Source of the DNA: Chrysomallon squamiferum
Taxonomy: Eukaryota; Animalia; Mollusca
DNA length: 64,000 nucleotides
Direction: 5' to 3'
NCBI GenBank assembly: GCA_012295275.1
Contig: CM022677.1
Coordinates: forward strand, 7,316,001-7,380,000
Shown here: one piece after another, positions 1 to 60,187 of the stretch
Layout: each line of letters starts with the position of its first letter
How positions within the stretch are numbered: position 1 is the first letter of the stretch
The notes under the pieces: generated by a model
Databases searched by the model: none
What the model saw: the letters and a program-made list of their open reading frames with translations, nothing else
What the model was told of the DNA's origin: nothing
Position numbers and translations under genes: made by a program

Positions 1-375
1 TCGCCATGTTAATTAAGTATGCAGCATAGATTAGTATTCCAAAATTTTATTTTCAAAATATGATAATATAAAGCTACCATTACAAAGCACTTCTACAATT
101 TGTTATCTTTCGTTTTATCAATCTTACTGATGGAGGTATTTTTCTCTTTGACTTGCATTCGATGTGTATTTGTATATTAGAAATGAATCCGTATGTACTG
201 TACATATATATATATATATGTATGTATATAATGTATATAATGTATATATATATGTACATACATACATGTATGTATGTATATATGTATGTATATGTATTCT
301 CATATGTACCGATCTATATATAAGATGTGCATTTAGAGTACTATTACATTCAACTTATTTGTTTGTGTGTGTGTG

Positions 376-415
<40 letters not shown>

Positions 416-556
416 TATACGCTGAATGTAGTTGTACTCTAGATACACATCCTATATACCATACTAAAATGTACAGTAGGCTGTATATATCTAAGTACAC
501 ACTGTTAGACTATATCTGTAGCCAATATGTTTATATATCTGTACACTTGAGAATTG

Positions 557-571
<15 letters not shown>

Positions 572-646
<75 letters not shown>
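572..646. repeat. (AG)n microsatellite, representative of many (AG)n, (AC)n, (AT)n, (AAT)n and (AGT)n tracts in the window
   Basis: Directly visible. Other tracts include 19560-19775, 29286-29345, 36575-36850, 42655-43010, 46496-46566, 55768-55877 and 58890-58984. Confidence 0.98.
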
Positions 647-649
<3 letters not shown>

Positions 650-1160
650 AGTTTTACTGTATACTACATATATATCGAGTATGTATTGGATACTATATAA
701 TTATATATATATATATATATATATATACATACATATATCTTTACAAACATCAAGTATCTGTGAACAAACAAACAAACAAACCTACAAATAAATAAATAAA
801 TAAATAAAAAGAAGAAGATCTAATATATGCTACATACTTAATTGAGACATAAATATGTACTCAACACTAGATACATATCGATTGTGTACTTTATACGTAT
901 AAATCGAATATGTTCTCTAGATTTACATAGGCTGTAGATGTACACTAAATATATATAACGAGTATACAAACTATATGTGGAGTACATAAAATATCTGGTA
1001 TATGCTGGTGTGGTGGATGTACATCAAGTAAATAATGTACGTTAGGTATTTACTGGTACACACGATATGAATCCAGAAGCGTTAGTTTGTATGGACACAT
1101 AAGGTATGAATTTTTGTAATATAAAACATACAGTACGTGCATAGGTAATTGCATACTCAC

Positions 1161-1523
1161 CTTCATTTTCCTGCTTATATGTTGTTTGCGATACCTGATG
1201 AAGGTATCCCTTTTGTTGACTGTTGTATCAGAACAGCTTCCTCTACAACCATCAACAAAAAACACAAGTGTGATTCCAAGTGACTTTAGATCAGTGATAA
1301 ATTTACTGATGTAAGCCTCTATAGATGCATACTCTGCTCCACAGATTTGCAAATATGGATTCCGGTTAAAACTTTTCCAAAAAACTTCTAGCAGATAATA
1401 TCTGAATGAATTGAGATCAACAAGAATTTCAATTCCTTCCCGCTGCCTTGCTACCTCGACAAGGTCAAGTTTTTCCGTACAATTATTTCTGAAGCAGTAG
1501 TTGATCAGACCTTTGATTCCCAT
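1161..1523 (-). CDS. Asteroid/FAM120-like XPG/FEN1-type PIN nuclease, copy 1, coding exon 1 (gene continues left of the window)
   Basis: The translation has an MGIKGL start and ILVD and LVFFVDG motifs typical of the FEN1/XPG N region. There is an acceptor TTTGCAG just upstream of the ATG (exon starts 1539) and a donor AAG|GTGAGT at 1161/1160, giving 363 coding nt (121 codons). Positions 1-200 match the 3' end of intron 1 of copy 2 (47500-47700), so exon 2 lies just outside the window. Confidence 0.85.
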
Positions 1524-28911: not shown

Positions 28912-28957
<46 letters not shown>

Positions 28958-29278: not shown

Positions 29279-29283
29279 ATCTG

Positions 29284-32149: not shown

Positions 32150-32193
<44 letters not shown>

Positions 32194-32507: not shown

Positions 32508-32540
<33 letters not shown>

Positions 32541-33140: not shown

Positions 33141-33180
<40 letters not shown>

Positions 33181-35324: not shown

Positions 35325-36681
35325 TAGATAGTGATTGCGGCGTTAAAACTTCAAGTGTTATTTTCATGTGGCCGTGTGAAGTTAATTCTAGTTTTTCGGT
35401 GAAACATGTTCTGGTGTTTATAAAATGTTACACTAGATGCGCCCTCTTTATTTCTCGTTATATTTTTGACGTCACATATAAAGCTACTGTTATTTTAAAG
35501 AATTACAACAAGGAAGCTCCATCTAGAGTGAAATCAGTGCAATTTGCCATTGACATTTCATTAGCAACTGTGATATTAATTGGATATTTCTCAACGGAAT
35601 TTATGTTGTGTTTACTACATCAGGTCAGAATAATTTGTTACTCAGCAACAATAACGTAGTGTTTTTGTTAAGACAAATACACTATTTACATTGATAATAT
35701 TACGCTGCTTAATTTTTACAAGTGAACACTGTCTAAATAGTGTTAGATGTTATAAGCTTGATCCACAGAATATATTGTGTGGTATCCTGAAAGATAACAG
35801 TGGATTTTTTAATAGTCTTGTCATTGTGATTGAGGCACATCATGTGATCCAGAAAAAAATGAGAACATATAAAAACATTTAATGACACAATCAAACTCTG
35901 CTAAAATTCGCTCAGTTTAAGTCTGTAAATTTAATTTTAAAAAGTTAACATTATCAAATTTGAATTGACGTTTTATTTACTTCAAGAATTAATTTGATTA
36001 ATCTGAAATACATAAATATGATTTTTGTTAGGTATATATTTGTTTCACAGGCATTATTATAATTACAAATAATTTAATTACTAAAGAATTTGAACTTTTG
36101 CGAAGGGAGACAACTGTAACAGAGCATTCCATACAACGTCATTCAATGAGGCGAACTCTTTCATAGAAAAAAAGAGAAGACATTGTTATCCTTGGCGATA
36201 TACATTCTTGTCCATACAAAATATGATGGAAAATAGAAAAAAAGTTAGATTCAATTAAATCGTATCTGTTGCTACAGCAGACGAAATCAGCTTCGCAGCA
36301 AAACAAAATACGGTTAAAAGAAAAAGATAAGTGACAATTTTAAATAATAATACAACGAGCTCGCTATCTGTGACAATAGCATTGATATTATAACCTGTTT
36401 TAATAATATTACAGAACACAACGAAACAAACTTTTTGTGGACAAACTGTCAATAAATAAATAAATAAGAGAAAAAAGAAATGCTAAAAGATAAATAACAT
36501 TGTACTAGAAACGGTGTAGAAGCCAGTGCGGTATCTCTCCCCTCAGCCTCAAAACAATTGTTAATGAATAACGATGTGTGTGTGTGTGTCTCTGTGTGTG
36601 TTAGTGTGTGTGTATGCATATGTATGTATGTGTGTTTGTGTTTGTGTACATATATTACATATATATCTGTATATATATATG

Positions 36682-36729
<48 letters not shown>

Positions 36730-36820
36730 CATGTATGTATATATGTATGTATGTGTGTATTATGCATATATTAATGTATGTATACATACAGATTATAAAT
36801 ATAGACAGATTGATGAAACC

Positions 36821-36851
<31 letters not shown>

Positions 36852-38018
36852 CGGGTAGTGTTTTTTTAAGCTGTTAACTTTATTTATAGATACAGAAGAA
36901 AAGGGATACTATGTAAACAGTTTTTGAAATGTTTTAAATATATTTATAAATGTATTGTTCTAGGAGTGTATTTCTGTACAATCCCGAATGCTTCTGTATC
37001 CATTTTTTTTTTTTTTTTTTTTTTTTTTATGTAGATGAATATATGTTTAGTAAAAACAGCAGAGAACTAGCTCTGTTATACAGATTAAATAAATTCGAAT
37101 GAAATTAGTAAATGATTACTTTTTAAAATAAAATTCCTAAGCAAACGCGTTTTCTAATTCTAAATATATGCATAAAAACATCAAAACAATAACATACATG
37201 AATATGTGTGTGTGCGTGTGTGTGTGTGTATGTGGAATTGTGCATTCATTATTTCCCATTCTTTTTCTAAGGTTGATTAAAAATAATGCGGATAATTTCA
37301 GAACTATTACATTTCTAAATTGTCTTGGATAGCTTCTTTAATAACAGGCTAGAGTTGTCTTTTAAAACAAACTATTTGAGGTACTACTTTTTCACATTAA
37401 ACTGATTATGACCATGAAATATGTACTTATATCTTGGCTTAAAACTGACTCCGTGTATGACGACTATACGTGAGTGTGTGCAAAACATTGACGGTAGTTA
37501 CAGATAGTTATGGAAATTATAGGCCTAACGTTGGGATTGATCTTTTCTCAAGATAGATCTGAGATATGTCTGTTTAGTCGACATATTTATATTTAGCGCC
37601 GATCTTTCTACGTCACTGAAAATGTTTCGTCGCAAATAGTTTCGTCATTTTCACATTGAGATCAATGGCTGAAAAGCTCAATCGTTTTGAAGAAAATAAT
37701 AGCTTATTTTAATAATTTTTATCAAAAGAATTTCATTGTTTTACAAGCAACGAAAATTAGGAAATATTGATCACAATACAAGTGAAAGTGAGACTAATTC
37801 CTACTAACTCTCGTGACAATGCAGATACCTGTGTGTAAAGGTGGGGTGTGTTTATTTGTTTTTGGTACCAATGGCAGTCTTCCAATTTACTTGTACCATT
37901 TTTTTTTTTTTTTACAAAGATTTGTTTTCTATTTCACTGCTTTGTTGAATAAAACTAATCAAATATATCAGTTTTCTCAACATTAATATAAGCAGTCGTC
38001 AATTCAGTCTAGTCAGCC

Positions 38019-38282
38019 CAGAGCCGGATTTCCCATACAGGCTTTCCAGGCTAGTGCCTAGGGCGGCAGTTTATGTTACATACATTCGTATTTTTACATT
38101 TGATTTATAAATAAATCATTATGTAAATATAAAACCATGTTTTTGCTTTCAACTAGATCATAAGTCATAACTATTCATATTATATAAACTAAGTGGAAAG
38201 GGTGAGGTGACTTGAGCCTTGAGGAGGGGGCGATAAAATTTCTTTTAGCCTATGGGCGACAAGCACATTAAATCCAAACCTG
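38019..38282. mobile_element. hAT-type MITE with 8-bp TSD
   Basis: Imperfect TIRs CAGAGCCGGATTT and AAATCCAAACCTG are flanked by the exact direct repeat AGTCAGCC (38011-38018 and 38283-38290). Confidence 0.85.
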
Positions 38283-38376
38283 AGTCAGCCACACGGAACT
38301 CTCTTTTTTCTTACTTAAGTACCTATCTTTTTTACTTTCCTGTTGTATTTATAACAAATAAATGTTAGTTTAGGTA

Positions 38377-38414
<38 letters not shown>

Positions 38415-38799
38415 GTTTTTATTATTTTATTGTTGTTATTATTATTTATTTATTTACCCTTGTTTAGAAGTTTTTAATCTTTGCAGACGCTAACAAAATA
38501 GATACATTCTGTAATAAAATATTCTATCGTTGTTAATCTTCATGTACTTAGACATTTAATATAAATGTATTTGTCTTGACTCATTATTTTATTACGTTGT
38601 GTCACTTTTCACTTGATTCACATTAAACACTCCTTAATACAGTTTTAAACACACACACTAATATTAATAATCAAAAGAAAGGTTAACACACTACTATTGA
38701 AATTTCAGAAATATACTAAAACATATTTACTTTCATATACACACGAAAACATGAATATACCCTTCATTTGATTAGTTTCTGCTCTGTTACTGACACTGA

Positions 38800-38847
<48 letters not shown>

Positions 38848-39776
38848 TTTTGTTTTAAGAGAAATAAACTTGAAATGTAGTGCTATTATGAATTGTTTGA
38901 TAGGATTATTTGTTGTTTTAACGCATACACAGTTTTAATATATGCGATATCTTACACAGACTACACAGTTTAAACTGCAATGCATATAAAACAAAGGAAA
39001 ATGATTATTTCCAATATCTGTGAGTTGTCATAGTCGTAAGTTTTTTTTTTTTGGTTGTTTTTTTTGACAATGTTTTAAGACCTATATCAAACCTTGGTAA
39101 ATTCCTGGACAATAATTAGCAACTTATGCGAGTTTCATTGTTTTGTGATTTTATTTGGTGCATTAACATAAATTAAGAAGAAGAAAGAAAAAATTAGGTG
39201 AAAAAATAACAACACCGTTTATTTGTAAAATGAACCATATCGATTTATAATTAGTACGTATATGTTAATAAAGATTATTATGTTCCTTTATTTGTTATTT
39301 GTTTTGAACTTTTGTTCTTTCTTGTTTTTAGTATAGTAGATGCAGAAAAATGCGTGATGATTGCCGGTGTTTACGGATTTACGATTGGCTAATAATAAGA
39401 CTAAAAAAGAATTAAAAAACTAACAATAATAATAATAAAAAAAAAAACATTTCGATTTATAATTAGTAAGGTTATTATGTTCCTTTTATTATTTAACTTT
39501 TTTTTTTTTTTTTTTTTTTCACTGTATTAGTTTCGGAAAAAATGCGGGATGATTGCCGGTCTTTACGGATTTACTTCGACGTTTGAAGAATTTTATTCAG
39601 AATTGGTGTAATCGCTTTATCATCCAACAAAGAAGTTTCTTAAAACATTGCAGGAGACAGGTATTACTATTTATTATTATTGTTGTTAATATGTTTGGAT
39701 TTTTTTTTTTGGTTTTATTTATTTATAATTTAAAAGTCATAGCCGCATGATGGCAGCCATCTTAATCGGGAACAAT

Positions 39777-42240: not shown

Positions 42241-42880
42241 TCATTCCATTAGCTGTTCAATTATCTCACTTTGTTCAGAAATAATTTGTTTCATCCTCTC
42301 TTTTTTTTCATCCATCAAAGATTTAGTGTTGCTAGCTGGAACAAAAAATTAAGAGATACCCAAAATACAATATCGTTAGTAAAATCATAAATGTAATATA
42401 AATAACATTAGGAGACTCTGATTATATTCTAATGAGTATGTTGTCATCGTATCAATCACTTTAACATTTATATACCACAAAATGGACGATTTTGCAATGT
42501 CAGTTTACTGGAATAAAAGAGTGCGCACACTAGTAAGCATAAACCTCCTACTTTGGGAATACAGTAATGATTTGGTATGTGAAAACCCTGATACTTCTGA
42601 AACCTTTTTGGGCTTTAATACTTACTGTGAATGTTAATGATATGGTGCAATGGGTATGTGGATGTATGTATGTATGTATGTATGTATGTGTTTATGTGTA
42701 TGTATGTATGTAAGTATGTATGTGTTTATGTGTGTGTATGTATGTATGTATGTATGTGTGTGTGTGTGTGTATGTAAGTATGTATGTTTATGTGTGTATA
42801 TATGTATATATATGTATGTATGTGTTTATGTGTATATGTATGTATGTGTTTATGTGTGTATGTATGTATGTAAGTATGTA

Positions 42881-43010: not shown

Positions 43011-43749
43011 CACATACAATCACACACAATCATAAATATGTAGATAGAGATATTCATACATACAAATATACAAACATATATACATACATATACAAAGATA
43101 TAAACAGAAAATAAAATTTTATATCAGTCTATTTTTAAACACTGAAGTGTTTGTTTTTTAAATTATTTTTAATTTACTTAATTATATTTTATTCTTTCTA
43201 AGTTATTACATTTTATATATACTTTATTTATTTTATTCTTTTTAATTTATTTAATTTTAAATATACATTATATTATTTATGTCTTAATTCATTACATATA
43301 CTTATTTTTACTAATCTATGGTTACCAGTAGTGTAATTTCAAAAATGAATATATTAACTTACACTTATCATCAGAACAATAATAAAATGTTGTCCAAACC
43401 GATCCTGAAAATGTTTCATGAGGAAGGGGAAACTCCTCAGACAAATACAAAATCTTTCCCAGTAATGTATAAGCATGGTAATAAATTTCCTAGAAGTAAA
43501 CATGATATTTTAAATTAGTTTTATCACTTTAAATATATATTAATATAAACTCTATCGTATATAAACATATGTATACAGACATCTATTTTATTTTATTGAC
43601 AATAACGGCGGTTTGCAATTTGACTAAAATAGGCCGATTTGGCCACAAGCAATTTTCGAATATATCTGAGATCCATGACTTTTGACACCCTTCTCTTTTA
43701 CACCCATTCTATAGTTGAATTTAGACAAACATAGAAAACTGATCCGATT

Positions 43750-43782
<33 letters not shown>

Positions 43783-46492
43783 GATAAATAAATAAATAAA
43801 TAATCATCCTCTTTTCCTACCTACCTTCCTTATTTGAAAATAAATACATTAACTGTAGCTGCTACCATTCTGAATAAAAAGACAGTTTGACAAGCCAAAA
43901 ATAATAATAATAATAATAATAGTAATAATTGTAATATAATAATAATAATAAATAAATAAATAAAATAAAATTATGATATTTAATGTAAATTTAATTTAAA
44001 AAAAAAAAATGATTTATTTATTTACTTTATTATTATTAGATTTATTATTATATATATAGTTTTTTTGCATCAAAAGAACAAATTATTTAAATTTTGAGAA
44101 ATAAATCTTATTTCTACTAACACGTCACACGGGTATGCAAACTTTATTTTACTAACACAAACGAACAATCTATTCTTGTTCAAACTTACAGAAATAGCTA
44201 TATATCTGTCCTCTCTATTTTAGTTTGATATTTGAAAATATTAACCTGAAACCAGGTTGAAATAGTTAAACAGCGAACATCAGGATTCAGACGAATTTGA
44301 TGGAAAGTTTTTTCATCTTCATTACCAAAAACGACGGCAACAAGGGCAGAGAACTCTTTTCTTTTTATTCTGAGATTCTTTTCCCGGTTTAATATCAAGA
44401 TAAATCTCAGAAGGTAACACTTGAAAGCCTTCTTTGTTTCATATCTCTCAAACCACGGTTTGCTAGAATCTGAAAAACACCCTATAAAAATAATAAATAA
44501 ATAAATAAAATATGTGTGTGTGTGTGTGTGTGTGTGCGTGCGTGTGTGTGTGAAATTAGGAATGAATATTCAGTTGTCGTGAAATTTTCTGATTAGACTC
44601 TGCACTTTGTATCTGGAAACGCACTGGTACAGAAAATCCAATAATCAAATGAGAAATACCAGACGCCGCTGACGAGACTCAAACGTATTACACCCTTTCA
44701 CCTCGATTCCAGAGGCAGACGACAATATTACCGTGACAACGCCGACTGCCTACATGTGTGTATGCGCATGCAAGCATGGGTATGTGTCTATAAGTAGGTC
44801 TCACGTAAATATATACGTGCTTATGTTATATAGCCTGCTATTGTTTCGTTATGAAATAATAATTACAATCTTCAAATTTCTCTTTATTCTTATTTAAATT
44901 ATTATTATCAAAACTATTTTTTCTCGGACAGAATAAAAAATAAATAAATAAATAAAAAGAAAACGAAAATAAGAAACAATCTAAAAAAAACAAAAAAACA
45001 AACAAAAAAACCCTATCAAAAACAAGAACAAGAAACAAACAAACAAAACAATTTTGCTTGTTTACCCAAGGCTCGATCCATGCAAGTCATGATACGGTGA
45101 AAATGTTTTTTATTTTCAGCAGTCCTTTCTTTGTCTATGTCCTGTATTCGTGGAACGTCACTGTCGTCTGCAGCATCCACCTAAACAAAATTCTAAGAGT
45201 TGTATATCTGATACAAGTGTATAGTGTTTGTAATTTAATTAGTGCAGATATTATTAAGTTCAATAATGTACCAAAATAGGTGCGCATATAATTGTGATGC
45301 AGGTGAGTAATATACATATTTGAGATTTATTTAACACAAGTGTTTGATGTAACAAGTACAGTTTATTTATTTCAGTTTCAGAATTTATAAGAATGTTATA
45401 TTTAGTTAATTATGGACTATGATAGTTAATTAGAAAAACAAAATCATAACAACAACAACAAATAAATCCAGTTCAGAAATACATCAAATGACACAATAGC
45501 ATTCGTTCGATTTAAATTCACTCAACATAATGTGCATCACATGTTTATGATCTTAGTCATACTTCACGATCAGCTCGGATATTCTTCTCAGTCAGGGTAC
45601 ATTTTGAATAATTAAAGCCGTACCTGAAACTCCATTACTTCCTCACAGGTTGATTCATATTCCGTGACACAGTTATTATCCCTCGGCAAAACCATCTTAG
45701 AGGAGCCAGCGCCTCGTGCACGCTTTGGTCTTCTAACAGCACAGGCCTCCAGAAGAATCCGTTGTTTAAACCCTTCACGATGCCGCTGAGTTGTCCACTC
45801 CTGATTCTTTCTTCAATGATTAAGGTAGTTTTATCTTTACCCGATCTATCCACGCCATCGGTTAATTCCAGTTTGTAAAATTTACGTGAGTGTTCTACAG
45901 CCTTCTGGAACTTTTCATTATCCGTCTACAAACAAAAATATTTCTAAGTATGTATATGCATAATATATATACATATGTAAGGAAATACACATAATGAAAT
46001 TAATTAAAAGTTATAAGTATCTTGGCACAGAATATGGAAGGATATAAACAAAACTGAAGAAAATATTTAAGAAACCACCGATATACAGAACAGAAAACCC
46101 GCATAATTATAATGTTCATTTTCGTGTGTGTGTCATGATGAAAAATATAAAATTAGTTTCAATAATGAATTCATAATAATTATTTCAACGCATCATTTCT
46201 TTGATATTCAATTACTAAAATACATTTTATATGTCTGTACTATTCTTTATTTAAACATACCTTAATGTCTGTATAATTCTTTATTTCACATGTTTGTAAT
46301 ATAAATTATCTGAATAAATCCTAACTTTAATATTTGTGATTTAAATACATCTTTCCTAACTATATCTTATCTGTATCTTCATAATATTCGTTAATTAAAT
46401 ACATTCACTTACTGAAAAATGTCCTACACTTTAGTAATATTTGTTATTTAAATGCATCTCACATGTATGTAATATTAGTTAAATAAGCCAGC

Positions 46493-46569
<77 letters not shown>

Positions 46570-49322
46570 GTAAAAATGTAACATACCATTGTTTTAGCTA
46601 GACGTGGATGGTTATCCAAAGTCCTGCATGCCTGTATCAGTTCAGCTGCCTCTTTAAAACGACACTGATAGTTAACATCCTGACCCAGTTCATCGAGAAC
46701 CGGGCGAGTGAAATCATTTCCAACTATAATGCTCATTTCCACAAGCTGATCGACATCATCAAACTGAAACAAAGATTCATTTTTCATATTCCAATATACA
46801 ATCTACATTTCTGTGAGTTGATATAAATGATCACACTGAAATAATAATGTATTCACTATTACAAAGTACTGTACTCATTTCTATGTGTTGAGATAAATGA
46901 TCAACAGTATCAGTCGTAACATAATACTAGTATAGACATAACATAATAACTGTAGAAGTCGTAATATAATAACAGTAGCAGTAATACAATAACAGTACAA
47001 GATGTGATATAATAACGATACCAGTGGTAATATAATAACAATAATACTAGCATCAGTTACAGTGTTAGCACATACTAATACAATTTCAAAATTATTTTAT
47101 TACTTTGAGTTGCTCTCTTAGTTTATCAGACGTTATCATCTCACAACGCAAATGTTGAAGATTCTTTGGCCATCTCATTTCTTCATTTATAGGCCAAATT
47201 CCTCTGAATGGAATCACCTTGCTTTCTCTAAATATACAGAAATCTGCGTCATTTGATAAAATGGCAAACGCTTTCTCCCGTTCCTGTAATTCTTTAGCTA
47301 TAACAGGATCAGCCTCAGAAAGAGACTGAACGATTTCACATTCACATTGTTTTATAATGGAGAACATTTCAGTGTCAAAATTAGCCGGGATTGGCGGCTC
47401 AACTGATCTGAGAGTAGAAATAGGTTTTTTTCGTGAACAAACATCAAGTATCTGTAAAGAAACAAATACAAATTATTATTATTATTATTATTAAATTTTC
47501 GCCGTGTTAATTAAGTATGCAGCATAGATTAGTATTCTAAAATTTTATTTTCAAAATATGATAATATAAAGCTACCATTACAAAGCACTTCTACAATTTG
47601 TTATCTTTGGTTTTATCAATCTTACTGATGGAGGTTTTCTTTGGCTTTGATTTGCATTCGATGTGTATCTATATTAGAAATGTATCCGTATGTACTTTAC
47701 AGTGTATATATATATATATATGATCCGAATATTTACCGTATGTTTCAAATTCCACGAAAACTAGTCATGTGTTATTTCACTTTGTTAATTTGCCAACATT
47801 ATCGGCCTAATTTCGTAGAAAATAAATATTGCATTAAAATATGTATTTGTTATCACATTTCTAATCCTGTATCTAGTTGCACAAAACAAATAAATTCGCT
47901 GAATGGATGTAAACTTTATTTTTGCATAACATTACCTTATTAGGAAACATTTCAGAATGATTTTCTAGTTTTACTGAACCAATTCGTGGAATTTAAAAAG
48001 GAAACTAGAAAGTAGTCGTTTATATAATACTGACTGTTCGTTTGAGAGTAAGGAACATCCAGCGAGAACGTGTAAGTTTGATTTAAAATTCTTATTCCTA
48101 TACTTTATATTTAACTGATAGATTATTCATTACTTGTTCATTAAATTATAACTAGGATTAACGAATAGTTTATAGATATATAAGTCATGACTACAAGGAA
48201 GTGTCATATACAAACACTAGAAGGAAACAACACAACACACCACACCAATTACAAATTCATCTTTGTTCAGTAAGATCTCGTAAATTAGTGGGAAAGTTTT
48301 TTGGACCCAGTCAGATTTTGATAGACTAGTAAAAATTGGTATTTACATAAGGATACCGCAAAGATTTTTTCTTTAATTATTTTACTTTTACATTATTGAA
48401 TTTAAAAACTAGATATTCTCAAACTAACAGAAATAGAAAAATCCAACTAAAAACTGCTTTACAAATATGTCTTACATCTTTCCGGTCTGTCTACTCGCTA
48501 TTATATAGAGTAGAATATTTATATACATACATACATACATGCATGTGTACCAATAAATACTCTTGAAATATATCTGTATCTTGTATAGACTATACCAAGT
48601 ACTGGATGTATACCTAAGGTACTTTACATACGTAATGTATAGCTACAATAACCAGATATTTTATACTGTTTACCCGTACACACTACATATATATATCGAT
48701 ATGTTTCGGATTCTATATAATTATATAAAATATCTCGTATATGCTGGAATGGTGGATGTGCATCAAGTGTATAATGAACGTTACCTATACATCTTGGTAT
48801 AGTCTATACAAGATACAGATATATTTCAAGTATTTACTGGTACACACGATATGAATCCAGAAGCGTTAGTTTGTATGGACACATAAGGTATGAATTTTTG
48901 TAATATAAAACATACAGTACGAACTGGTCATACACGTGCATAGGTAATTGCATACTAACCTTGTCTTTCTTTTTTATTTCTTCTTGGCGATACTCGGACA
49001 CTATTTTCCATTTGCTGTGTGTTTTATCAAAATAGTTTCCTCTACTACCATGAACAAAAAACACAAGTGTGATTCCAAGTGACTTTAGATCAGTGATAAA
49101 TTTACTGATGTAAGCCTCTATAGATGCATACTCTGCTCCACAGATTTGCAAATATAGATTCCGGTTAAGACTTTTCCAAAAAGGTTTTAGCAGATAATAT
49201 CTGAATGAACTGAAATCAACAAGAATTTCAATTCCTTTCCGCTCCCTTGCTACCTCGACAAGGTCAAGTTTTTCCGTACATTTATTTTCGAAGCAGTAGT
49301 TGAACAGACCTTTGATTCCCAT
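42241..49322 (-). CDS. Asteroid/FAM120-like PIN-domain nuclease, copy 2, 8 coding exons, about 575 aa
   Basis: Phase-compatible GT-AG exons: 49322-48960, 47451-47104 (SEAD, ILSNDADF), 46763-46587 (IIVGNDF), 45925-45647, 45180-45066, 44469-44246 (EFSALVAVV, DVRCLTISTWFQ), 43489-43363 (PLPHETFSGSVW) and 42335-42241 (TGA). Total 1728 nt. The exon 4 donor CCT|GTGAGG is the least certain junction. Confidence 0.8.
44575..44750 (-). mobile_element. Probable tRNA-derived SINE in an intron of PIN gene copy 2
   Basis: The minus strand begins GGCAGTCGGCGTTGTCACGGT (A-box-like), followed by GTTTGAGTC (B-box-like). It is GC-richer than its flanks. Confidence 0.45.
47722..48502. mobile_element. Unclassified insertion of about 780 bp in intron 1 of PIN copies 2 and 3
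   Basis: It starts GATCCGAATATTTACC right after a (TA)n tract and is absent at the equivalent site of copy 1 (~200-220). A more diverged copy of the same end lies at ~51600-51845. Confidence 0.6.
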
Positions 49323-49457: not shown

Positions 49458-49960
49458 AAAGAAAAATAATAGTTATATAACTGGAACTGCAAAAAAAAGC
49501 TTATTATGTTTATTATGTTTATTTAAATAATTGTATACTATTACTATTCGATCTTTGTACACACAATAATCGAAGTGTTACAACAGTGTCGTAATATTAC
49601 AGCTTATGTAAATAAATACTTATATAGTAATAATGATAATTATATTAATAATTATATAATAAAACTATATTTTCACGAGAAATTAGAATGCTCAACGCAA
49701 GCCTCCCAAATAGTGCATATTTTAAAAATGATAAAGAATTTACAGAAGTGAAATTGTATTCGTTATTTAAAATGAACTATAATTAATTTTATTTTCGAAA
49801 TATTTCTGCAGTTTCGAATACAAATAGCATCTTTATGTTGAAAAACCTCAGTCGCTGCATATTTCTCATAAATCGATGTACATAGCAAATCATTTAAATT
49901 AAACTGAAACTACATGCCTGTAGCATAGGAATAAAATGAAGATGATGATGATAATAATAA
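49458..49960 (+). repeat. Duplicate of 3417-3890 (upstream region of the PIN gene)
   Basis: Shared blocks include TATAACTGGAACTGCAAAAA, GAAATTAGAATGCTCAACG and GAATTTACAGAAGTGAAATT. Confidence 0.88.
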
Positions 49961-50268
49961 TAAAAGAAAGATAATATATTTATTATGCTATAAAAGTTAA
50001 GTGTTATGGAAGGAAAAAGAAGAAAAAAGAGAAATACTTTCTGAATGAGTTATGTATTAGGGATGAATTAATGGATGAAGTTTTATCATCTTTATTATCA
50101 CTGACAGTTAATACCAGGCAGTCTGTTTACACAACTTTGGATGGCCGTGAACAGATCATCTCAACAATTTGTCTCTGGATTACTTCACTCAATTAATTCC
50201 CCATGTGGTGAGGTGAGACTGCACTTTCAGATAAACATACATGACAGTTCCACAACTTCCAGAAATAT

Positions 50269-51207
50269 ATATCTCACTTAGCTGGAATGTACTGGAAGAG
50301 ATATCTCACTTAGCTGGACTGTACTGGAAGAGATATCTCACTTAGCTGGAATGTACTGGAAGAGATATCTCACGTAGCTGGAATGTACTGGAAGAGATAT
50401 CTCACTTAGCTGGAATGTACTGGAAGAGATATCTCACTTAGGTGGAATGTACTGGAAGAGATATCTCACTTAGCTGGACTGTACTGGAAGAGATATCTCA
50501 CCTAGGTAGATTGCATTGGAAGAGATATCTCACTTAGCTGGAATGTACTGGAAAAGATATCTCACTTAGCTGGAATGTACTGGAAAAGATATCTCACTTA
50601 GCTGGACTGTACTGGAAGAGATATCTCACTTAGCTGGAATGTACTGGAAAAGATATCTCACTTAGCTGGACTGTACTGGAAGAGATATCTCACTTAGCTT
50701 GAATGTACTGGAAGAAATATCTCACTTAGCTGGACTGTACTGGAAGAGATATCTCACCTAGGTAGATTGGATTGGAAGAGATATCTTACCTAGGTGGACT
50801 GTATTGGCGGAGATATCTCACCTAGGTGGACTGGATTGGAAGAGGTATCTCACCTAGGTGGATTGCATTTGAAGAGACATCTCACCTAGGTGGACTGTAT
50901 TGGCAGAGATATCTCACCTAGGTGGACTGTATTGGCAGAGATATCTCACCTAGGTGGACTGTATTGGCAGAGATATCTCACCTAGGTGGACTGTATTGGA
51001 TGAGACATCTCACCTAGGTGGATTGCATTGGAAGAGATATCTCACCTAGGTGGACTGTATTGGCAGAGACATCTCACCTAGGTGGACTGTATTGGATGAG
51101 ACATCTCACCTAGGTGGACTGTATTGGATGAGACATCTCACCTAGGTGGATTGCATTGGAAGAGATATCTCACCTAGGTGGACTGCATTGGAAGAGACAT
51201 CTCACAT
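50269..51207. repeat. 32-bp minisatellite, about 29 units, two variant domains
   Basis: The unit ATATCTCACTTAGCTGGAATGTACTGGAAGAG changes at ~50750 to ATATCTCACCTAGGTGGACTGTATTGG(A/C)AGAG. Confidence 0.97.
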
Positions 51208-53127
51208 AGATTCTATTTTTGAAAAAAAATACATATTTTATTAAGAGGAGAAAATCGTTGTAAAAGCTAGTACGAAATATTTCCTAATAAAGTAATGTTA
51301 TGTGCACATTTAAATTCTAAAGATATTTGCAAAGCTAAATCACAGTGCCTTTATAAAATTTCAACCATCCAAATCTTACCGATTCCAAAAAATATTCCCG
51401 TCGATTTACGAGATTTTGTCTTTTGTCAGCTAGGCGCAATTTCTATTTAACGTGTTGTTATTTGCTCCTTATGTAAGTGTTTATTATACTTTTTTTTTAA
51501 ATTAAATAACATATATGAAAAGGCAATTCGTGAACCGGAAGTGCATTTTATTTCTCATTTATGTTATTTAGCGAACGTGAGTAAAGAAACTGAAAAAACG
51601 CATTAGGAATTTTCGTGGAATTAGAAAAAGAAAGTGCATATTCGTTCAGCGAATTTATTTGGTTTCTATAACTGGATGCTGGATTAAAGAACACATTTAG
51701 AAATGTGATATAAAATACATATTTTAATGCGAAATTTATTTTGTGCGGAATTTATCTATACATTTTGGCGAACTTGGTTAAACAAAGAGAAAGCACTCAT
51801 GACTGTTTTCGTCGAATTAGAAAAATGAGGTAAATATTCGGATCAGTGAACATATCAGGAAATATCTTCTCTACTGAGTGGGCTCCCTTCGCTCACTCAG
51901 CACAAAAATAATAATAATAATAATAATAAAAATATAGCGACTCTTCAAGTTTCTTTTTGTTTTGTTAATATGAAATAACTCCTAACCTGTACATAACACA
52001 TATTTCTACCTTTTATTTAACAAAACTATGACAGTTCTACATTCTTATTCACTTTTATCAGTCATGTAGACTTAAATGTGACAATTGTCAGCCGATATAT
52101 AACAATACAGAAAGAGAAATTAGGATACTGAGATATGAAAGAAAAATAGCGAGTAGACAGACCGGAAAGATGTAAGACATATTTGTAAAGCAGGTCTTAG
52201 TTGGATTTTTCTATTTCTGTTAGTTTGAGAATATCTAGTTTTTAAATTCAATAATGTAAAAGTAAAATAATTAAAGAAAAAATCTTTGCGGTATCCTTAT
52301 GTAAATACCAATTTTTACTAGTCTATCAAAATCTGACTGGGTCCAAAAAACGTTCCCACTAATTTACGAGATCTTACTGAACAAAGATGAATTTGTAATT
52401 GGTGTGGTGTGTTGTTTCCTTCTAGTGTTTGTATATGACACTTCCTTGTAGTCATGACTTATATATCTATAAACTATTCGTTAATCCTAGTTATAATTTA
52501 ATGAACAAGTAATGAATAATCTATCAGTTAAATATAAAGTATAGGAATAAGAATTTTAAATCAAACTTACACGTTCTCGCTGGATGTTCCTTACTCTCAA
52601 ACGAACAGTCAGTATTATATAAACAACTACTTTCTAGTTTCCTTTTTAAATTCCACGAATTGGTTCAGTAAAACTAGAAAATCATCTAATGTTATGCAAA
52701 AATAAAGTTTACATTCATTCAGCGAATTTATTTGTTTTGTGCAACTAGATACAGGATTAGAAATGTGATATCAAATACATATTTTAATGCAATATTTATT
52801 TTCTACGAAATTAGGCCGATAATGTTGGCGAATTAACAAAGTGAAATAACACATAACTAGTTTTCGTGGAATTTGAAACATACGGTAAATATTCGGATCA
52901 TATATATATATATGTACTGTAAAGTACATACGGATTCATTTCTAATATAGATACACATCGAATGCATGTCAAAGTTGAAAAAAAACCTCCGTCAGTAAGA
53001 TTGATAAAACGAAAGATAACAAATTGTAGAAGTGCTTTGTAATGGTAGCTTTATATTATCATATTTTGAAAATAAAATTTTGGAATACTAATCTATGTTG
53101 CATACTTAATTAACATGGCGATTGAAA

Positions 53128-53167
<40 letters not shown>

Positions 53168-53202
53168 CATAATCATAATCATTTTTATTTGTTTCTTTAC
53201 AG

Positions 53203-53549
53203 ATACTTGATGTTTGTACACAAACGAACATTTTTCTACTCTCAGATCAGTTGAGCCGCCAATCCCGGCTAATTTTGACACTGAAATATTCTCCATTATA
53301 AAACAGTGTGAATGTGAAATCGTTCAGTGTCTTTCTGAGGCTGATCATGTTATAGCTAAAGAATTGCAGGAACGGGAAAAAGCGTTTGCCATTTTATCAA
53401 ATGACGCAGATTTCTGTATATTTAGAGAAAGCAAGGTGATTCCATTCAGAGGATGTTGGCCTATAAATGAAGAAATGAGATGGCCAAAGAATCTTCAACA
53501 TTTGCGTTGTGAGATGATAACGTCTGATAAACTAAGAGAGCAACTCAAA
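53203..53549 (+). pseudogene. Asteroid-like PIN nuclease copy 3: isolated, inverted exon 2 with a 1-bp deletion
   Basis: It has a TTACAG|ATACTTGAT acceptor and an AAA|GTAATA donor as in copy 2 exon 2, but is 347 nt rather than 348, with the frameshift in the first 11 codons. No exon 1 or exon 3 homolog lies in the duplicated arm. Confidence 0.85.
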
Positions 53550-53659
53550 GTAATAAAATAATTTTGAAACTCTGTTTGTATGTGCTAACACAGTAACTGC
53601 TGCTAGTATTATTGTTATTATATTACCACTGGTACTGTTATTATATCTCACTAAACTCA

Positions 53660-54283: not shown

Positions 54284-55290
54284 TGTGTGTGTGCTTTTTC
54301 TAATGTTTACAGTTGCTTTATATTCCGCCTGTCACTTGTATGATGAAAAGCGGAGGAATTGCAGGAGTAATTATCAGCTCGGGAGTGGTGGGTGTTACGG
54401 GTTCTTGTTTCACGTCTAGCGACAAGGTTCAACACGTTGCCAAGTAACGCGAGTTCCTTTTCTTTTTCTATAAAAGAAGCGAGATTGTTTTAAATTATTA
54501 TTTATTAGTGGAGAAGTGTCGACAAGTCGCTGTCCACTGAAAGCTCTGGGTAACAAGTTTTATATATATATATATATATATACATACATACATACATATA
54601 TTTACTGTTAATTTTATCCATCTATGATATTCTTTACTGATAGTGAATGTTCGGCAATAACCCGAATACAGTTTTAAAAATGACTTGTGTCTGTTGCTTC
54701 TAGTGTATAAAAAGGAGATATGGTATCCGTCTATCTATCTATCTATCTATTATATATATAATACTATTACAGCTACAGCAACAACTAATATTGTTGTTTG
54801 AGTGTGTGTGTGGGTGTGTGAAAGTGATTTGTTCTGTAATCTATTTTAGAAAGATGACGTCACAATATTTATTTTTAGCATCATATCTCTCTACTTTTGC
54901 TTAGGAAGTGTTAGAAAACTGAAATCAAACTGAATATGAAAAAAAATAAAAATAAAAATAAATAAAACAAAATGAAACAATAATATATGGTTTTGTTCGT
55001 CATCCTAAAAATTCTCAAGTCTCAGTACCGGCCGTTCCCCTCCTCTGTGATTATTGTGAATCAGACCCTTGCTCCAACTAACTCGAGCGTGCAGAGAGAA
55101 GAAACAATTAAATATGCTTTGTAACTTTGGGCTTTAAAAGACGAGTTTACAGATCCCCAGTGTTTTATCCAGTTTAGTATCTAGTCACGTTATTGAGATA
55201 TCAGTTACTATATTTTGTTGTTTGTAAGTAGTAGAGAGAGGGGGTCAAAGACCATCCTTCATATCTGTGAATAGAACATTTTATACATAT

Positions 55291-55336
<46 letters not shown>

Positions 55337-55814
55337 CAGTGATAGTAATAACATCGTTTATTAAGCGATCCTGGCATTTTAATATTGGCTGTTTGGCTGA
55401 CTGTCGTATAAATTTCCTAGAGAAATTGTTATTTTATTTAATTGCAGTGTTATGTTTTTAGATGTTGATTATTTATACGTACTGTTCCTTATGATGTATT
55501 ACTAAAATACTTTTCACACATGATTAATTACAGTTCTTAGTAGTAGTAGTAATTGTAGTAATAGCAGTAGCAGTAGTGGCCGTTGGAGTAGTAGTAATAA
55601 CTAATACAGATATTAGCAGTAGTATTTACAGTTGACTTTTAGTAGTAGTAGTACTAGTAACAGTAGTAGTAATAGAAGTAGTAGAACTAGTAATACTAGT
55701 AATAGTAATAATAATAATAGTATGCAAACAAACGCAAACAGTTGTTTTGCTACTACTACTGCCACTATAATAATAATAATGATAATAATAATAATAATAA
55801 TAATAATAATTATA

Positions 55815-55879
<65 letters not shown>

Positions 55880-56809
55880 GTCATGCGATCTTGCTTTCTA
55901 TGACAACATGTTAGTTGAGAAGCCAATTAAACAAATATATATTTACATATAAAACATTTAAAAGAAGAAAAATTTCGAAGGTTTTCGTTAAAACGACGTT
56001 CTCTTTCAGAACTGATTCACTTTTACCAAAAATCTATAAATTGTCAGTTTGTGCTGAATGAAGACACGCTTCAGATTAACTGATATTTAAATCTGCACAA
56101 AAGTTGGACTAACCTAAACCTAACCAAAACCCTAACCAAAATGCTAACCATACTTCTGAAACTCCTCATATGATTTTCCAGGTCTTGCAGCTTTTTCAGC
56201 TATTTAAATTAACCCTGGGCATAAACCTTACTCGAAACAGTGTGATAAAATTAAGGATGTTTTGAAATAAATCTAACCAAATAATTTCCTATCATTTAAC
56301 AATGTTTCCAAATAAACTAAAGACAAAATATTTTGATAAATGTATATTAAATCACCTAACTTTAACCCACTATGAAAGATTTACTAAAATAATAATTTTT
56401 TTCTCTCTCACAATATTTAACTTTCAACATGTTTTATAATGCATTTAACATTTTGTATAAGCAGTAAAAATTTAAAAACTGGACTTCATTTGTGTCAGGA
56501 ACTGAAGTTTCCATTAATTAATACTGAACCTCAACTATTTTTAGTCATAATAATTATAAGCTTTTCAGAGTTATGGCCCTTTGTTTATATAAAAATATGT
56601 TCTCGAGCCAGGTCAGTCAATGAATTCATCTTTACTCATTTTACATCCATCATTAATTCCAGTACAGTCATTCCGTCAACAAGAGATAACGTTCTCCAGT
56701 CGATCAAGTACACACTCCAGTTGTTTTATTTCTTTGTCACTTGAACTGTTTTCTGAACGTGATCTTTTCCATCTTCTTGTTTGTTATAAACCAGTCTGTT
56801 ATATGTAAC

Positions 56810-57421
56810 ATGGACAACGATACATCATCTGATTAGTCCGATTTGTACTGTCTTTGGTTGATGAAAATATGGTAACGCTATATATTATTACACCTATGGG
56901 CCATTGGGATATTCTGTAACGACTCGGATATACACTGAAGTTGATTTTTGCATATTTTGCATAAAATATTGGTGTGATCAATACTGTAATAGTTTAATCT
57001 GATTTTTAACCCCTAAAAACATGTGTATAGACACCAAAATTATTTTGATACCATGTGTAGTTACTGAAATATTGACGAAAATGAGATTTTCAGTAATGGC
57101 AGCCGTAATATGCCTATTCAGCACAATACATTGGTGTGATTTTGACTGAAATGGCTTAATCTGATTCTTTACCCCTCAAAACATGGGAAAAGACACCAAA
57201 ATTATTTTTATACTATGTATAGTTACTGAGATATTGACGAAAACAAGATGTTCAGTAATGGCGGCCTTAATTTGCATATTGTGCGGATTGCCCAAGGATG
57301 ACAGAGTGGCATCATTCAGATTCTTAAAGAGCACATCTCGGAGGTATAGAAACAGCAAAAAAACTTTGTACGGACTGTATTGCAAGGTTCTCCAAAAATC
57401 TGGGGTTTGGCAACCGGACTA
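56810..57421. mobile_element. Second copy of the 147-bp-repeat transposon end, carried in the segmental duplication
   Basis: It is collinear with and highly similar to 34710-35324, with the same flanks. Confidence 0.5.
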
Positions 57422-58887
57422 TAGATAGTGATGGCGGCGTTAAAACTGCAGTGTTATTTTCATGTGGCCGTGTGAAGTTAATCCTAGTTTTTCAGTGAAT
57501 CATGTTCTGGTGTTTATAAAATGTTACACTAGATGCCCCCTCTTTATTTCTCGATATATTTTTGACGTCACATATAAAGCTACTGTTATTTTAAAGAATT
57601 ACAACAACGAAGCTCCATCAATAGTACAATCATACCTGTAATATTCAGTGCAATTTGTCGTATAACTACCTGAATATCATCTCGTTCAAGAAGGATAGTT
57701 GAGAAATTTAGAAATAAAGAGGCCTTCCAGATTCCAATTCTCTGTTACTAACAAAATCAGGATTAGTTTTTAGCTGCACCTGAGATGGTGTTGATAATTA
57801 AATATTGATTTTTTTTTCTAGACAGGAGTGTATTTAAAAGCTGAGGTTACACTTGAAATATTAGCAAATAGTTAATTACATTTGAGTGATATTAATATTT
57901 CTAGTTGGAAGTGCAGTGAATATTCAGGAATAAAATGTAGCAGCCAGATACAAATGACATTTCATTAGCAACTGTGATATTAATGTGATGTTTCTCAACG
58001 GAATTTGTGTTTTTTTTACTATATCAGGTCAGAATAATTTGTTACTCAGCAAAAATAACGTAGTGTTTTTGTTAAGACAATACACTATTTACGTTAATAA
58101 TTTTACGCTGCTTAATTTTTTCATGTCAACATTGTTTAAATAGTTTTAGATGTTATTAGCTTGATCCACAGAATATATTGTGTGGTATCTGAAAGATAAC
58201 AGTGGATTTTTTAATAGTCTTGTCATTCTGCTTGAGACATGTGATCCAGAAAAAAATGAGAACATATAAAAACATTTAATGACATAAAATTCGCTCAGTT
58301 TAAGTCTATAAATTTAATTAATAAAAGTTAATATTATCAAATTTTAATTGACGTTTTATTTACTACAAGAATTAATTTGATTAATCTGAAATACATAAAC
58401 ATTTTGAGGTTTATTAAACGATTTTTATTAGGTATATATTTGTTTCACATTCATTATTATAATTACAAATAATTCTTTTACTAAAGAATTTGAACTTTTG
58501 CGAAGGGAGACAACTGTAACAGAGCATTCCATACAACGTCATTCAATGATGCGAACTCTTTCATTGAAAGAAAAATAAAAGATATTGTTATACTTGGCGA
58601 TATGCATTCTTGTCTATACAAAATATGATGGAAAATAGAAAAAAGTTAGATTCAACGAAATCGTATCTGTTGTTACAGCAGAAGAAATCGACTTCGCAGC
58701 AAAATAAAATACGGTTAAAAGAAAAAGATAAGTGACAATTTTAAATAATCATACAACGAGCTCGCTATCTGTGACGATAGCATTGTTATTATAACCTGTT
58801 TTTTTAATATTACAGAACACAACGAAACAAACTTTTTGTGGAAAAACTGTCAATGAATGTGGGAAATAAATAAATAAATAAATAAAT

Positions 58888-58988
<101 letters not shown>

Positions 58989-59326
58989 AACTACTAAAAG
59001 ATAAATAACATTGGTAATTGAAACGGTGTAGCAGCCAGTGCGGTATCTTTCCCTCAGCCTGAAAACAAATATTAATGAATAACGATGTGTGTGTGTGTGT
59101 GTATGTGTTTGTAGGTGTGTTTATCTGTGTGTGTGACTGTGTGTTTGTGTGTATGTGTGTATGTGTGTATGTGCGTTTGTGTTTGTGTATATATAATATT
59201 TACTTGTACCATTTTTTTTTTTTACAAAGATTTGTTTTCTATTTAACTGCTTTGCTGAATAAAACTAATCAAATATATCAATTTTCTCAACATTAATATA
59301 AGCAGTCGAATTCAGTCTAGTCAGCC

Positions 59327-59505
59327 CAGAGCCGGATTTATCAATAAATCATTATGTAAATGTAAAACCATGTTTTTACTTTCAACTAGATCATAAGTCA
59401 TAACTATTCATATTATATGAATAGGTGAGGGGGACTTGAGCCTAGAGGCGGGGGCGGTAAAATGTCTTTAGCTTATGGGAGGCAAGCTCATTAAATCCAA
59501 CCCTG
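59327..59505. mobile_element. Duplicated, internally deleted copy of the hAT MITE
   Basis: It has the same TIRs and the same AGTCAGCC TSD as 38019-38282, so the insertion predates the duplication. Confidence 0.8.
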
Positions 59506-60187
59506 AGTCAGCCACACGGAACTCTCTTTTTTCTTACTTAAGTACATATCTTTTTTACTTTCCTGTTGTATTTATAAAAATAAATGTTAGTTTAGGTATA
59601 TGTTTGTGTGGGTGTCGTTTTTATTATTTTATTGTTGTTATTATTATTTATTTATTTACCCTTGTTTAGAAGTCTTTAATATTTACAGACGCTAACACAA
59701 TAGATATATACTGTAATAAAATATTTTATCATTGTTAATCTTCATGTACTTAGACATTTAATATAAATGTATTTGTCTTGACTCATTATTTATTTACACT
59801 GTGTCACTTTTCACTTGATTCACATTAAACACTCCTTAATACAATTTTAAACATTGATCGCACACACACACAAACACACACACACACACACTTTTGTTTT
59901 AAGAGAAATAAACTTGAAATTTAGTGCTATTATGAATTGTTTGATTGGATTATTTGTTGTTTTAACGCATACACAGTTTTCATATATGCGATATCTTACA
60001 CAGACTACACAGTTTGGTAAATTCCTGGACAATAATTAGCAACTTACTGTAGTGTGAGTTCTAAGTTTTGTGATTTTATTTGGTGCATTAACATAAATTA
60101 AGAAGAAGAAAGAAAAAATAGGGTGAAAAAAAATAACAACACCGTTTATTTGTAAAATGAACCATATCGATTTATAATTTGATTAAA

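What the first reader, a model, noticed from the sequence alone, without database searches (positions are those of the whole stretch)
48960..49322. Asteroid-like PIN nuclease paralogs differ only by amino-acid-changing substitutions, a strong sign of diversifying selection
Seen: hand codon alignment of exon 1 of copy 1 (1161-1523) and copy 2 (48960-49322) is gap-free over 121 codons. 31 codons differ and every one changes the amino acid. None of the 90 codons with a shared amino acid has a silent change. The adjacent intron (1050-1160 vs 48833-48959) is nearly identical apart from one short indel, so the exon is more diverged than its intron. Established: dN far above dS between young paralogs is typical of host-pathogen or host-transposon arms-race genes, and unexpected for a housekeeping FEN1/XPG/ASTE1-type nuclease. 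Inference: this is an expanded, rapidly diversifying PIN nuclease family that may act in defence.
Basis: partly seen in the sequence, partly recalled or inferred. Interest (0 to 1): 0.9.

Follow-up and report, generated by a model that had tools for sequence, protein, structure and literature searches.

The report
Snail nuclease duplicates diversify substrate gate
Two neighbouring copies of an unstudied gene for a predicted DNA/RNA-cutting enzyme, likely from a snail, differ at 31 codons that all change the protein, mostly in the predicted substrate gate, which likely reflects selection for new targets and possibly a role in defence.

Summary
Observation confirmed: 31 of 121 codons differ, all change the amino acid, and none of the 90 shared codons has a silent change. 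Both haplotypes of the variable patch occur in 3 of 4 runs laid. dN/dS is about 20 (p 3e-5 to 1e-4) and survives multi-nucleotide-mutation and neutral-simulation controls. That ratio overstates the case. Flanking non-coding DNA differs by 8%, silent sites lie below that (likely gene conversion), and codons 1-95 show no excess. The robust excess is codons 96-121 (40% of replacement sites, p 2e-11), the predicted helical arch that gates substrate in FEN1/EXO1-type nucleases. Most arch changes fall on copy 2, which also carries segregating loss-type variants (Asp91His, a 16-bp frameshift). The gene belongs to an uncharacterised lophotrochozoan Asteroid/FAM120-like family, not shown to be ASTE1. 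Duplicates in other lineages also tend to diverge in the arch, orthologue pairs do not. Selection on amino acids is about 70% likely; defence is plausible but untested.

The parts
1161..1523 (-). Copy 1, exon 1 (121 codons; N-terminal half of the PIN domain plus arch)
1161..1238 (-). Copy 1, arch patch, codons 96-121
1..1160 (-). Copy 1, intron 1; bases 1-224 match the 3' end of copy 2 intron 1, so exon 2 should lie just outside the window (inferred)
48960..49322 (-). Copy 2, exon 1
48960..49037 (-). Copy 2, arch patch, codons 96-121: 18 of 26 codons differ from copy 1; predicted helix 99-120
49050..49052 (-). Copy 2 codon 91: His where 30 of 33 homologues and copy 1 have Asp; His form seen in runs X1 and X2, Asp form on the copy-2 haplotype in X5
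49053..49154 (-). Codons 57-90, identical between the two assembled copies (likely conversion tract or constraint)
47104..47451 (-). Copy 2, exon 2 (acidic motifs at residues 167/169 and 189/191)
46587..46763 (-). Copy 2, exon 3 (GND motif, Asp254)
45624..45925 (-). Copy 2, exon 4; 302 bases in the assembly, out of frame
45694..45698 (-). Point of a 16-bp deletion between two 5-bp direct repeats; stops the assembled copy 2 at residue 393; the longer form is present in runs X1, X4, X5
45066..45180 (-). Copy 2, exon 5
44246..44469 (-). Copy 2, exon 6
43363..43489 (-). Copy 2, exon 7
42241..42335 (-). Copy 2, exon 8 with stop codon (least certain exon; profile E 0.011)
52145..53650 (+). Inverted partial duplicate of copy 2 (part of intron 1, exon 2 at 53203-53549 one base short, start of intron 2); no exon 1; 3 silent and 4 replacement codon differences from copy 2 in the last 100 codons
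3490..3877 (.). Upstream non-coding block shared with 49582-49961; 33 of 363 aligned bases differ; used as neutral yardstick

Best explanation
These are two tandem copies of a predicted FEN1/EXO1-fold, Asteroid/FAM120-like nuclease gene whose amino-acid differences cluster in the predicted helical arch, likely because selection, probably from a conflict with viruses or mobile elements, favoured new substrate-gate residues, mostly in copy 2, while gene conversion likely erased silent differences. Shown: the duplication, the 31:0 pattern, its clustering, the lopsided change, the segregating Asp91His and frameshift forms, and the fold of an orthologue model. Inferred: by analogy with FEN1 the protein would bind a nucleic-acid junction, pass a free 5' end under the arch helix and cut it with metals held by seven acidic residues; changing the arch and helix 2 would change which ends are accepted, or remove a surface that a viral inhibitor recognises. 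Copy 1 stays nearer the ancestral form. Copy 2 has lost family-conserved arch residues and exists in intact and broken forms, as is usual for genes under birth-and-death evolution. The defence step has no direct evidence here.
For: dN/dS 19-24 under six codon models, p 3e-5 to 1e-4; significant separately for codons 1-95 and 96-121 and with double/triple mutations allowed (p 2e-4, 0.004, 0.007). Arch replacement sites differ at 26 of 65 against 74 of 926 non-coding bases, p 2e-11. No frameshift pair or inverted template explains the patch. Both patch haplotypes lie on contigs in X1, X2 and X5, two studies. An orthologue model (pLDDT 93.6) matches EXO1 (Z 15.1, rmsd 3.5, 294 aligned) and FEN1 (Z 14.6, rmsd 4.6, 288 aligned); 26 of the 31 differing codons map to helix 2 with its loop (6) and to the strand-2 Asp plus the following long helix (20), the elements that form wedge and gateway in FEN1 (PMC5490271, passages). 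The branch to copy 2 is about three times that of its sister, the Gigantopelta protein (0.99 vs 0.31; 0.93 vs 0.34). The arch diverges faster than codons 57-90 at p<0.05 in 5 of 8 other duplicate-like pairs and 0 of 5 orthologue pairs. Further variants in reads are mostly replacements: 7 of 8 codons in exon 1 and 14 of 16 in exon 4. Five of 30 proteins scanned, all distant relatives, carry a DEAD/DEAH helicase domain pair behind the nuclease part, a hint of an RNA-related role.
Against: No expression, induction or activity data. The extra read variants are not clearly above neutrality (pooled p 0.04-0.25). Codons 1-95 show no excess over flanks (p 0.35-1), so the ratio of 20 depends on low dS. 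Only 8 shared codons (4.3 silent sites) lie in the patch, so its own test is modest (p 0.0006-0.009). Copy 2 carries loss-type variants, which fits decay too. Differing sites are on average more variable in the family than other sites (entropy 2.04 vs 1.40, p 0.001). The pair was picked from a large scan, so p-values are uncorrected. The other duplicate-like pairs are protein-only and not independent, 3 of 8 show no arch bias, and P0002-P0006 are unnamed, so they may not be paralogues of one species. Most named species gave a single hit, which suggests an ordinary conserved function for the ancestral gene. The helicase fusions fall outside the group that holds the mollusc orthologues, except one on a very long branch.
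Confidence: 0.45

Rival explanations
1. Positive selection is real but was a single shift of function after duplication, not an arms race: copy 2 changed its gate for a new housekeeping substrate or became a binding-only form, within DNA repair or RNA metabolism.
For: Change is lopsided towards copy 2 (8 vs 1 matches to the outgroup) and hits residues kept across the family: Asp106 24/33, Thr107 30/33, Trp108 32/33. The nearest characterised relative, ASTE1, is a DNA-repair endonuclease (PMC12599495, passages). The family is present once in most named lophotrochozoan genomes hit.
Against: Copy 1 has also left the consensus (Arg111 to Tyr in both copies; 9 of 26 arch residues match the outgroup). 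Copy-1-type contigs in the runs differ from the assembled copy 1 by further replacements, and X1 holds at least three exon-1 types. Null-type variants of copy 2 fit an essential new role poorly.
Confidence: 0.25
2. Copy 2 is decaying under relaxed selection; conversion removed silent differences, and a large scan picked out a chance extreme.
For: Frameshift and Asp91His in the assembled copy 2; a broken third fragment nearby; codons 1-95 at the non-coding rate; exon 4 variants not significantly above neutral (2 silent of 18 bases, p 0.08-0.19).
Against: Decay predicts 5-9 silent-only codons and 0 are seen; the broken fragment does show silent changes, 3 of 7 differing codons. It does not explain 40% change in the arch against 8% in flanks. 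The 18 differing arch codons contain no stop and no indel, and the longer exon-4 form exists on a copy-2-type contig (X1 record 3).
Confidence: 0.15
3. The arch patch is a conversion tract from an older, more distant paralogue, so its divergence reflects age and not selection.
For: The differences are sharply bounded (0 of 34 codons, then 20 of 31). X1 holds contigs with 16 and 11 differences from copy 2 where copy 1 has 8 and 7, so another type exists. In the unnamed protein set, P0214 carries a short arch stretch like that of P0003 on a P0004 background.
Against: An old donor should bring silent changes: about 5 expected at the patch's rate, 1.67 seen; LRT p 0.0006-0.009. The intron next to the patch is almost identical. 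No donor lies in the window.
Confidence: 0.12
4. The differences are assembly or consensus errors, or the two copies are uncollapsed alleles.
For: The assembled copy 1 differs from the copy-1-type contigs of all four runs at codons 101 and 118; 17 of 43 sites were not among the rows shown.
Against: 25 of 43 sites are confirmed letter for letter, copy-2-type contigs carry 0-2 differences, both patch types occur together in three runs, and the copies lie 47.8 kb apart with unalignable intron middles.
Confidence: 0.03

Closest known systems
FEN1 / EXO1 / XPG / GEN1 5'-nucleases (FEN-like PIN group)
   Same: Fold of an orthologue model (Z 12-15); Gly2, acidic motifs and an arch Lys at matching places.
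   Different: 10-18% identity; no PDB hit by sequence or profile; about 620 residues with a long C-terminal part; here duplicated with a fast-changing arch, and both copies lack the family's arch Arg.
Asteroid / ASTE1 (Pfam PF12813) and FAM120 proteins
   Same: Nearest Atlas clusters by features are Asteroid/FAM120-type (0.93-0.98); UniRef names some homologues 'Asteroid domain-containing' and one 'Constitutive coactivator of PPAR gamma'.
   Different: Scores stay under the PF12813 cut-off (at most 15.5 bits against 24.2); NCBI calls the homologues uncharacterised; orthology to ASTE1 was not tested; no report of positive selection turned up.
Uncharacterised lophotrochozoan family of XP_041378105.1 (Gigantopelta aegis LOC121390373)
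   Same: Best match, 44% over 613 columns; sister in both trees; several intron positions agree with relatives' loci.
   Different: Arch identity is 3 of 26 (copy 2) and 9 of 26 (copy 1) against 35-42% between Gigantopelta and three other orthologues; an intron after codon 121 is absent from loci L001-L005 and L007.
Positively selected, duplicated host-defence genes (TRIM, APOBEC3, OAS, RLR families; seen in search listing and abstract starts only)
   Same: Tandem copies, dN above dS at a predicted substrate surface, broken copies, likely conversion.
   Different: No antagonist, induction or phenotype is known for this family.

Membership tests
FEN-like PIN nucleases (group 1 of PMC5499597) | PIN core fold with FEN-like elaborations | tested here: met
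   Model of the Owenia orthologue matches EXO1 and FEN1 at Z 14-15; tested on an orthologue, not on the window's full protein
FEN-like PIN nucleases (group 1 of PMC5499597) | Acidic active-site residues after S1, S2, S4, before H4/H5 and in the H2TH region | tested here: met
   Asp36, Asp91, Glu167, Asp169, Asp189, Asp191, Asp254, each kept in 30-33 of 33 homologues; position 91 is His in the assembled copy 2 and Asp in copy 1; correspondence to FEN1 residues is by motif and strand position, not by atomic superposition
FEN-like PIN nucleases (group 1 of PMC5499597) | Helical arch after strand 2 with a conserved Lys | tested here: met
   Predicted helix 99-120 in copy 2 and 103-131 in the orthologue; Lys104 in both copies and 31 of 33 homologues
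FEN-like PIN nucleases (group 1 of PMC5499597) | Arch Arg seven residues after the Lys (FEN1 Arg100) | tested here: not met
   Arg in 29 of 33 homologues, Tyr111 in both window copies, with Arg at 112; met for the family, not for these copies
FEN-like PIN nucleases (group 1 of PMC5499597) | H2TH/H3TH motif | tested here: inconclusive
   GND motif present and structural alignments span the region, but the motif was not inspected on its own
FEN-like PIN nucleases (group 1 of PMC5499597) | Metal-dependent nuclease activity | not testable with these tools
   Needs purified protein
Asteroid/ASTE1 (PF12813) | Reaches the Pfam XPG_I_2 gathering score | tested here: not met
   At most 15.5 bits vs 24.2 in five close homologues; 23 of 46 alignment members match at E<=0.1, best E 2.2e-4; window exons 13.4 bits at best
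Asteroid/ASTE1 (PF12813) | Orthology with ASTE1 in a tree that includes ASTE1 and FAM120 | not tested
   No named ASTE1 or FAM120 sequence was returned by the searches; Atlas features place the family near both
Arms-race (host-defence) genes | dN/dS above 1 at a predicted interaction surface | tested here: met
   pairwise only, exon 1 only
Arms-race (host-defence) genes | Recurrent diversification in several lineages | tested here: inconclusive
   Protein-level arch bias in 5 of 8 other duplicate-like pairs, 0 of 5 orthologue pairs; no DNA for those pairs
Arms-race (host-defence) genes | Induction by infection or effect on a pathogen or transposon | not testable with these tools
   One small RNA run only, no raw reads

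The most novel reading that the evidence does not exclude
An unrecognised family of animal defence nucleases: a conserved Asteroid/FAM120-like 5'-nuclease, related to nuclease-helicase fusions of sponges and other eukaryotes, that is duplicated again and again in molluscs, each time retuning its helical arch and sometimes losing the strand-2 Asp, to recognise changing viral or transposon nucleic-acid ends or to act as a decoy for viral inhibitors.
Probability: 0.3. Interest if true: 0.78.

Novelty: new variant of a known kind. Interest (0 to 1): 0.52.

Why it matters
FEN1-type nucleases are known as slowly evolving repair enzymes, and their arch is the part that selects the substrate. A family in which duplicates rewrite that arch under selection offers natural variants for testing how the gate sets specificity. 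It is also a concrete candidate for a missing effector in mollusc antiviral or anti-transposon defence. The case also shows how gene conversion can inflate pairwise dN/dS: the ratio of 20 shrinks to about 2 over the exon, and about 5 in the arch, when flanking DNA is the yardstick.

Tried and rejected
No whole genome is held, so paralogues could not be counted and the proposed family-wide codon models could not be run. Frameshift-pair and template-switch origins of the patch: a gapped alignment gains at most one point, and the longest reverse-complement match nearby is 9 bases. RNA run X9 gave no contig on exon 4 (one 40-base, low-identity piece in the intron); this is no evidence against expression. 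X4 lists no copy-2-type contig over 48984-49121; a hole proves nothing. The contigs that carry the exon-4 deletion (X4 record 11, X5 record 18; 0 other letters, 0 gaps) run only 25-30 bases past the junction, short of the tool's 31-base bar for bridging, so its presence in those runs is likely, not firm; 37 pieces were not shown. Metagenome scan with exon 1 found nothing; with the family alignment it gave 15 loci, none from this organism. L004 vs L005 differ at only 4 codons (3 replacement, 1 silent), too few to serve as a control. The exon-1-only model found no fold at Z 5 or more, as expected for half a domain. PDB sequence and profile searches gave no relevant hit. The careful tree did not finish; the quick tree is quoted. 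Four look-ups of earlier findings returned nothing. Ten literature searches showed no paper on this family or on selection in a nuclease arch among the listed titles; subscription papers are not covered. The supplement of PMC5499597 (cut when stored) does not list the Capitella member under three identifiers; the part not stored could. PMC8195603 passages held nothing relevant. No complex prediction was sent, as no binding is claimed.

Full report
1. The observation. The two exons align without gaps over 121 codons. 31 codons differ at 43 bases, all 31 change the amino acid, and none of the 90 shared codons differs. Counted by base, about 1.7 steps are silent, all within multi-hit codons. Nei-Gojobori gives dN 0.159 and dS 0.023. 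Six codon models give dN/dS 19-24, p 3e-5 to 1e-4, and stay significant for codons 1-95 and 96-121 separately and when double and triple mutations are allowed. In 20 neutral simulation settings of 5000 runs, 5-9 silent-only codons were expected and zero occurred in at most 0.62% of runs. These p-values are not corrected for the scan that picked this pair.

2. The differences are real. Eleven runs were listed; four were laid on copy 2 exon 1. X1, X2 and X5, from two studies, each hold a copy-2-type contig (1-2 other letters) and a copy-1-type contig (29-31 other letters) across the variable patch. Of 82 variant rows 40 were shown and 34 are exonic: 25 give the copy-1 letter, 1 gives another letter at a differing site, 8 are new sites. 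The nine non-matching bases fall in eight codons, seven of them replacements. X1 holds contigs with more differences from copy 2 than copy 1 has (16 vs 8; 11 and 11 vs 7), so at least a third allele or paralogue exists.

3. The neutral yardstick changes the reading. Against this, silent sites are low (0 of 61 in codons 1-95, p 0.01), replacement sites in codons 1-95 are level (15 of 224, p 0.58), and those in codons 96-121 are far higher (26 of 65, p 2e-11). Codons 57-90 are identical. The simplest reading (inferred) is a duplication old enough for about 8% neutral change, later conversion over exon 1 and the intron start, and strong selection in the arch. An old donor for the patch should have brought about 5 silent changes and 1.67 are seen, which disfavours but does not exclude it.

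4. The gene. Copy 2 has eight exons from 49322 to 42241 with GT-AG introns; copy 1 lies 47.8 kb away in the same orientation and runs off the window. An inverted fragment at 52145-53650 repeats exon 2 with a one-base loss, lacks exon 1, and shows 3 silent and 4 replacement codon differences. As assembled, copy 2 stops at residue 393 because exon 4 lacks 16 bases between 5-base repeats. Loose ends in X1, X4 and X5 show the longer form, in X1 on a copy-2-type contig; contigs matching the short form occur in X4 and X5 but only just pass the junction. Codon 91 is His in the assembled copy 2 and in X1 and X2 contigs, Asp on the copy-2 haplotype of X5. Exon 4 variants are 16 replacement and 2 silent bases plus a 6-base in-frame insertion, not significantly above neutral alone.

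5. The family. Searches found full-length homologues of about 620 residues in gastropods, bivalves, a cephalopod, annelids and nemerteans, named 'uncharacterized' or 'Asteroid domain-containing'; Mya arenaria has five entries on one chromosome-size contig. The closest is the Gigantopelta protein (44%), sister to copy 2 in both trees with a branch three times shorter, so the source is likely a related gastropod (inferred). An AlphaFold model of the Owenia orthologue (pLDDT 93.6) matches EXO1 and FEN1; the best viral matches are Asteroid-like proteins of giant viruses. Atlas features point to Asteroid/FAM120 clusters. Pfam PF12813 is not reached. Five of 30 proteins scanned carry DEAD plus Helicase_C domains, and one of them aligns with the family profile at probability 99.4%.

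6. Where the changes fall. By segment: 5 of 36 codons at the N-terminus, 6 of 20 in helix 2 and its loop, 0 of 34, then 20 of 31 from the strand-2 Asp through the long helix. PMC5499597 (passages) defines the arch as the insert after strand 2 that sets structure specificity. PMC5490271 (passages) places the wedge in helix 2 and its loop, the gateway in helices 2 and 4 with Lys93 and Arg100, and reports a 530-fold rate loss for D86N; PMC11574390 (passages) agrees on the gateway. Matching Asp91, Lys104 and position 111 to FEN1 Asp86, Lys93 and Arg100 is inferred from motif, strand position and spacing. Both copies keep Lys104; both have Tyr for the family's Arg111; copy 2 also replaces Asp106, Thr107 and Trp108. 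In codons 91-121 copy 1 matches the outgroup at 8 of 20 differing codons, copy 2 at 1.

7. Other lineages. Using the same two segments (57-90 and 91-121, chosen on the window pair), five orthologue pairs differ at 32 of 170 and 25 of 155 residues, none biased to the arch. Of eight other duplicate-like pairs five are biased at p<0.05, for example P0004/P0003 at 0 of 34 and 14 of 31; two of three Mya pairs are not. P0004 and P0005 have Asn at both the strand-2 Asp and the arch Lys, a parallel to Asp91His. These pairs share members, lack DNA, and the unnamed set may span species.

8. Verdict. Selection on amino acids, about 70%: conflict-driven 45%, single functional shift 25%. Decay plus chance 15%, imported patch 12%, artefact 3%. 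The defence role rests on analogy with other duplicated fast-evolving genes, on broken forms segregating, and on distant helicase fusions; ASTE1, the nearest characterised relative, is a repair endonuclease (PMC12599495, passages). Ten searches showed no paper on this family among listed titles. It is a new variant of a known nuclease kind, real and worth testing, but less extreme than the ratio of 20 suggests.

Noticed in passing
window 27353-29280 (-): TRIM-like gene between the two nuclease copies: RING exon, coiled-coil region and NHL-type propeller, with a frameshift in an A run near 27815; real or an assembly slip.
   Followed up: partly
window 11500-12670 (-): Exons of a receptor-type guanylyl cyclase (kinase-like end, linker with weak HNOBA match, start of a cyclase domain; label from recalled motifs).
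   Followed up: partly
window 20470-21900 (+): Broken DNA-transposon-like reading frames, one with a weak DUF4371 match; hAT type by recall.
   Followed up: no
window 32111-39252 and 54799-60179: A second, apparently non-coding duplication; three blocks differ by 6.0-6.8% and one by 14.5%, similar in age to the nuclease duplication.
   Followed up: partly
window 47452-48959 and 1-1160: The intron after codon 121, right beside the variable patch, is absent from relatives' loci L001-L005 and L007, so it was likely gained in this lineage.
   Followed up: partly
window 48544-48846: Element with 38-base perfect inverted arms inside copy 2 intron 1, like a small non-autonomous transposon.
   Followed up: no
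window 50269-51209 and 61363-61708: A 32-base minisatellite of 29 copies upstream of copy 2, and a roughly 100-base repeat of 3.5 copies with open frames.
   Followed up: no
L006:416-1052: A relative of the family with several in-frame stops in the first exon, a pseudogene in another organism.
   Followed up: no
proteins P0094, P0146, P0148, P0166, P0193: Unnamed or mis-named long proteins (Sycon, Cyanophora and others) with this nuclease module in front of a DEAD/DEAH helicase; an architecture worth its own look.
   Followed up: partly
window 45624-45676: A contig in X1 and X4 skips 51 bases at the end of exon 4, with only 23 letters on the short side; unexplained.
   Followed up: no
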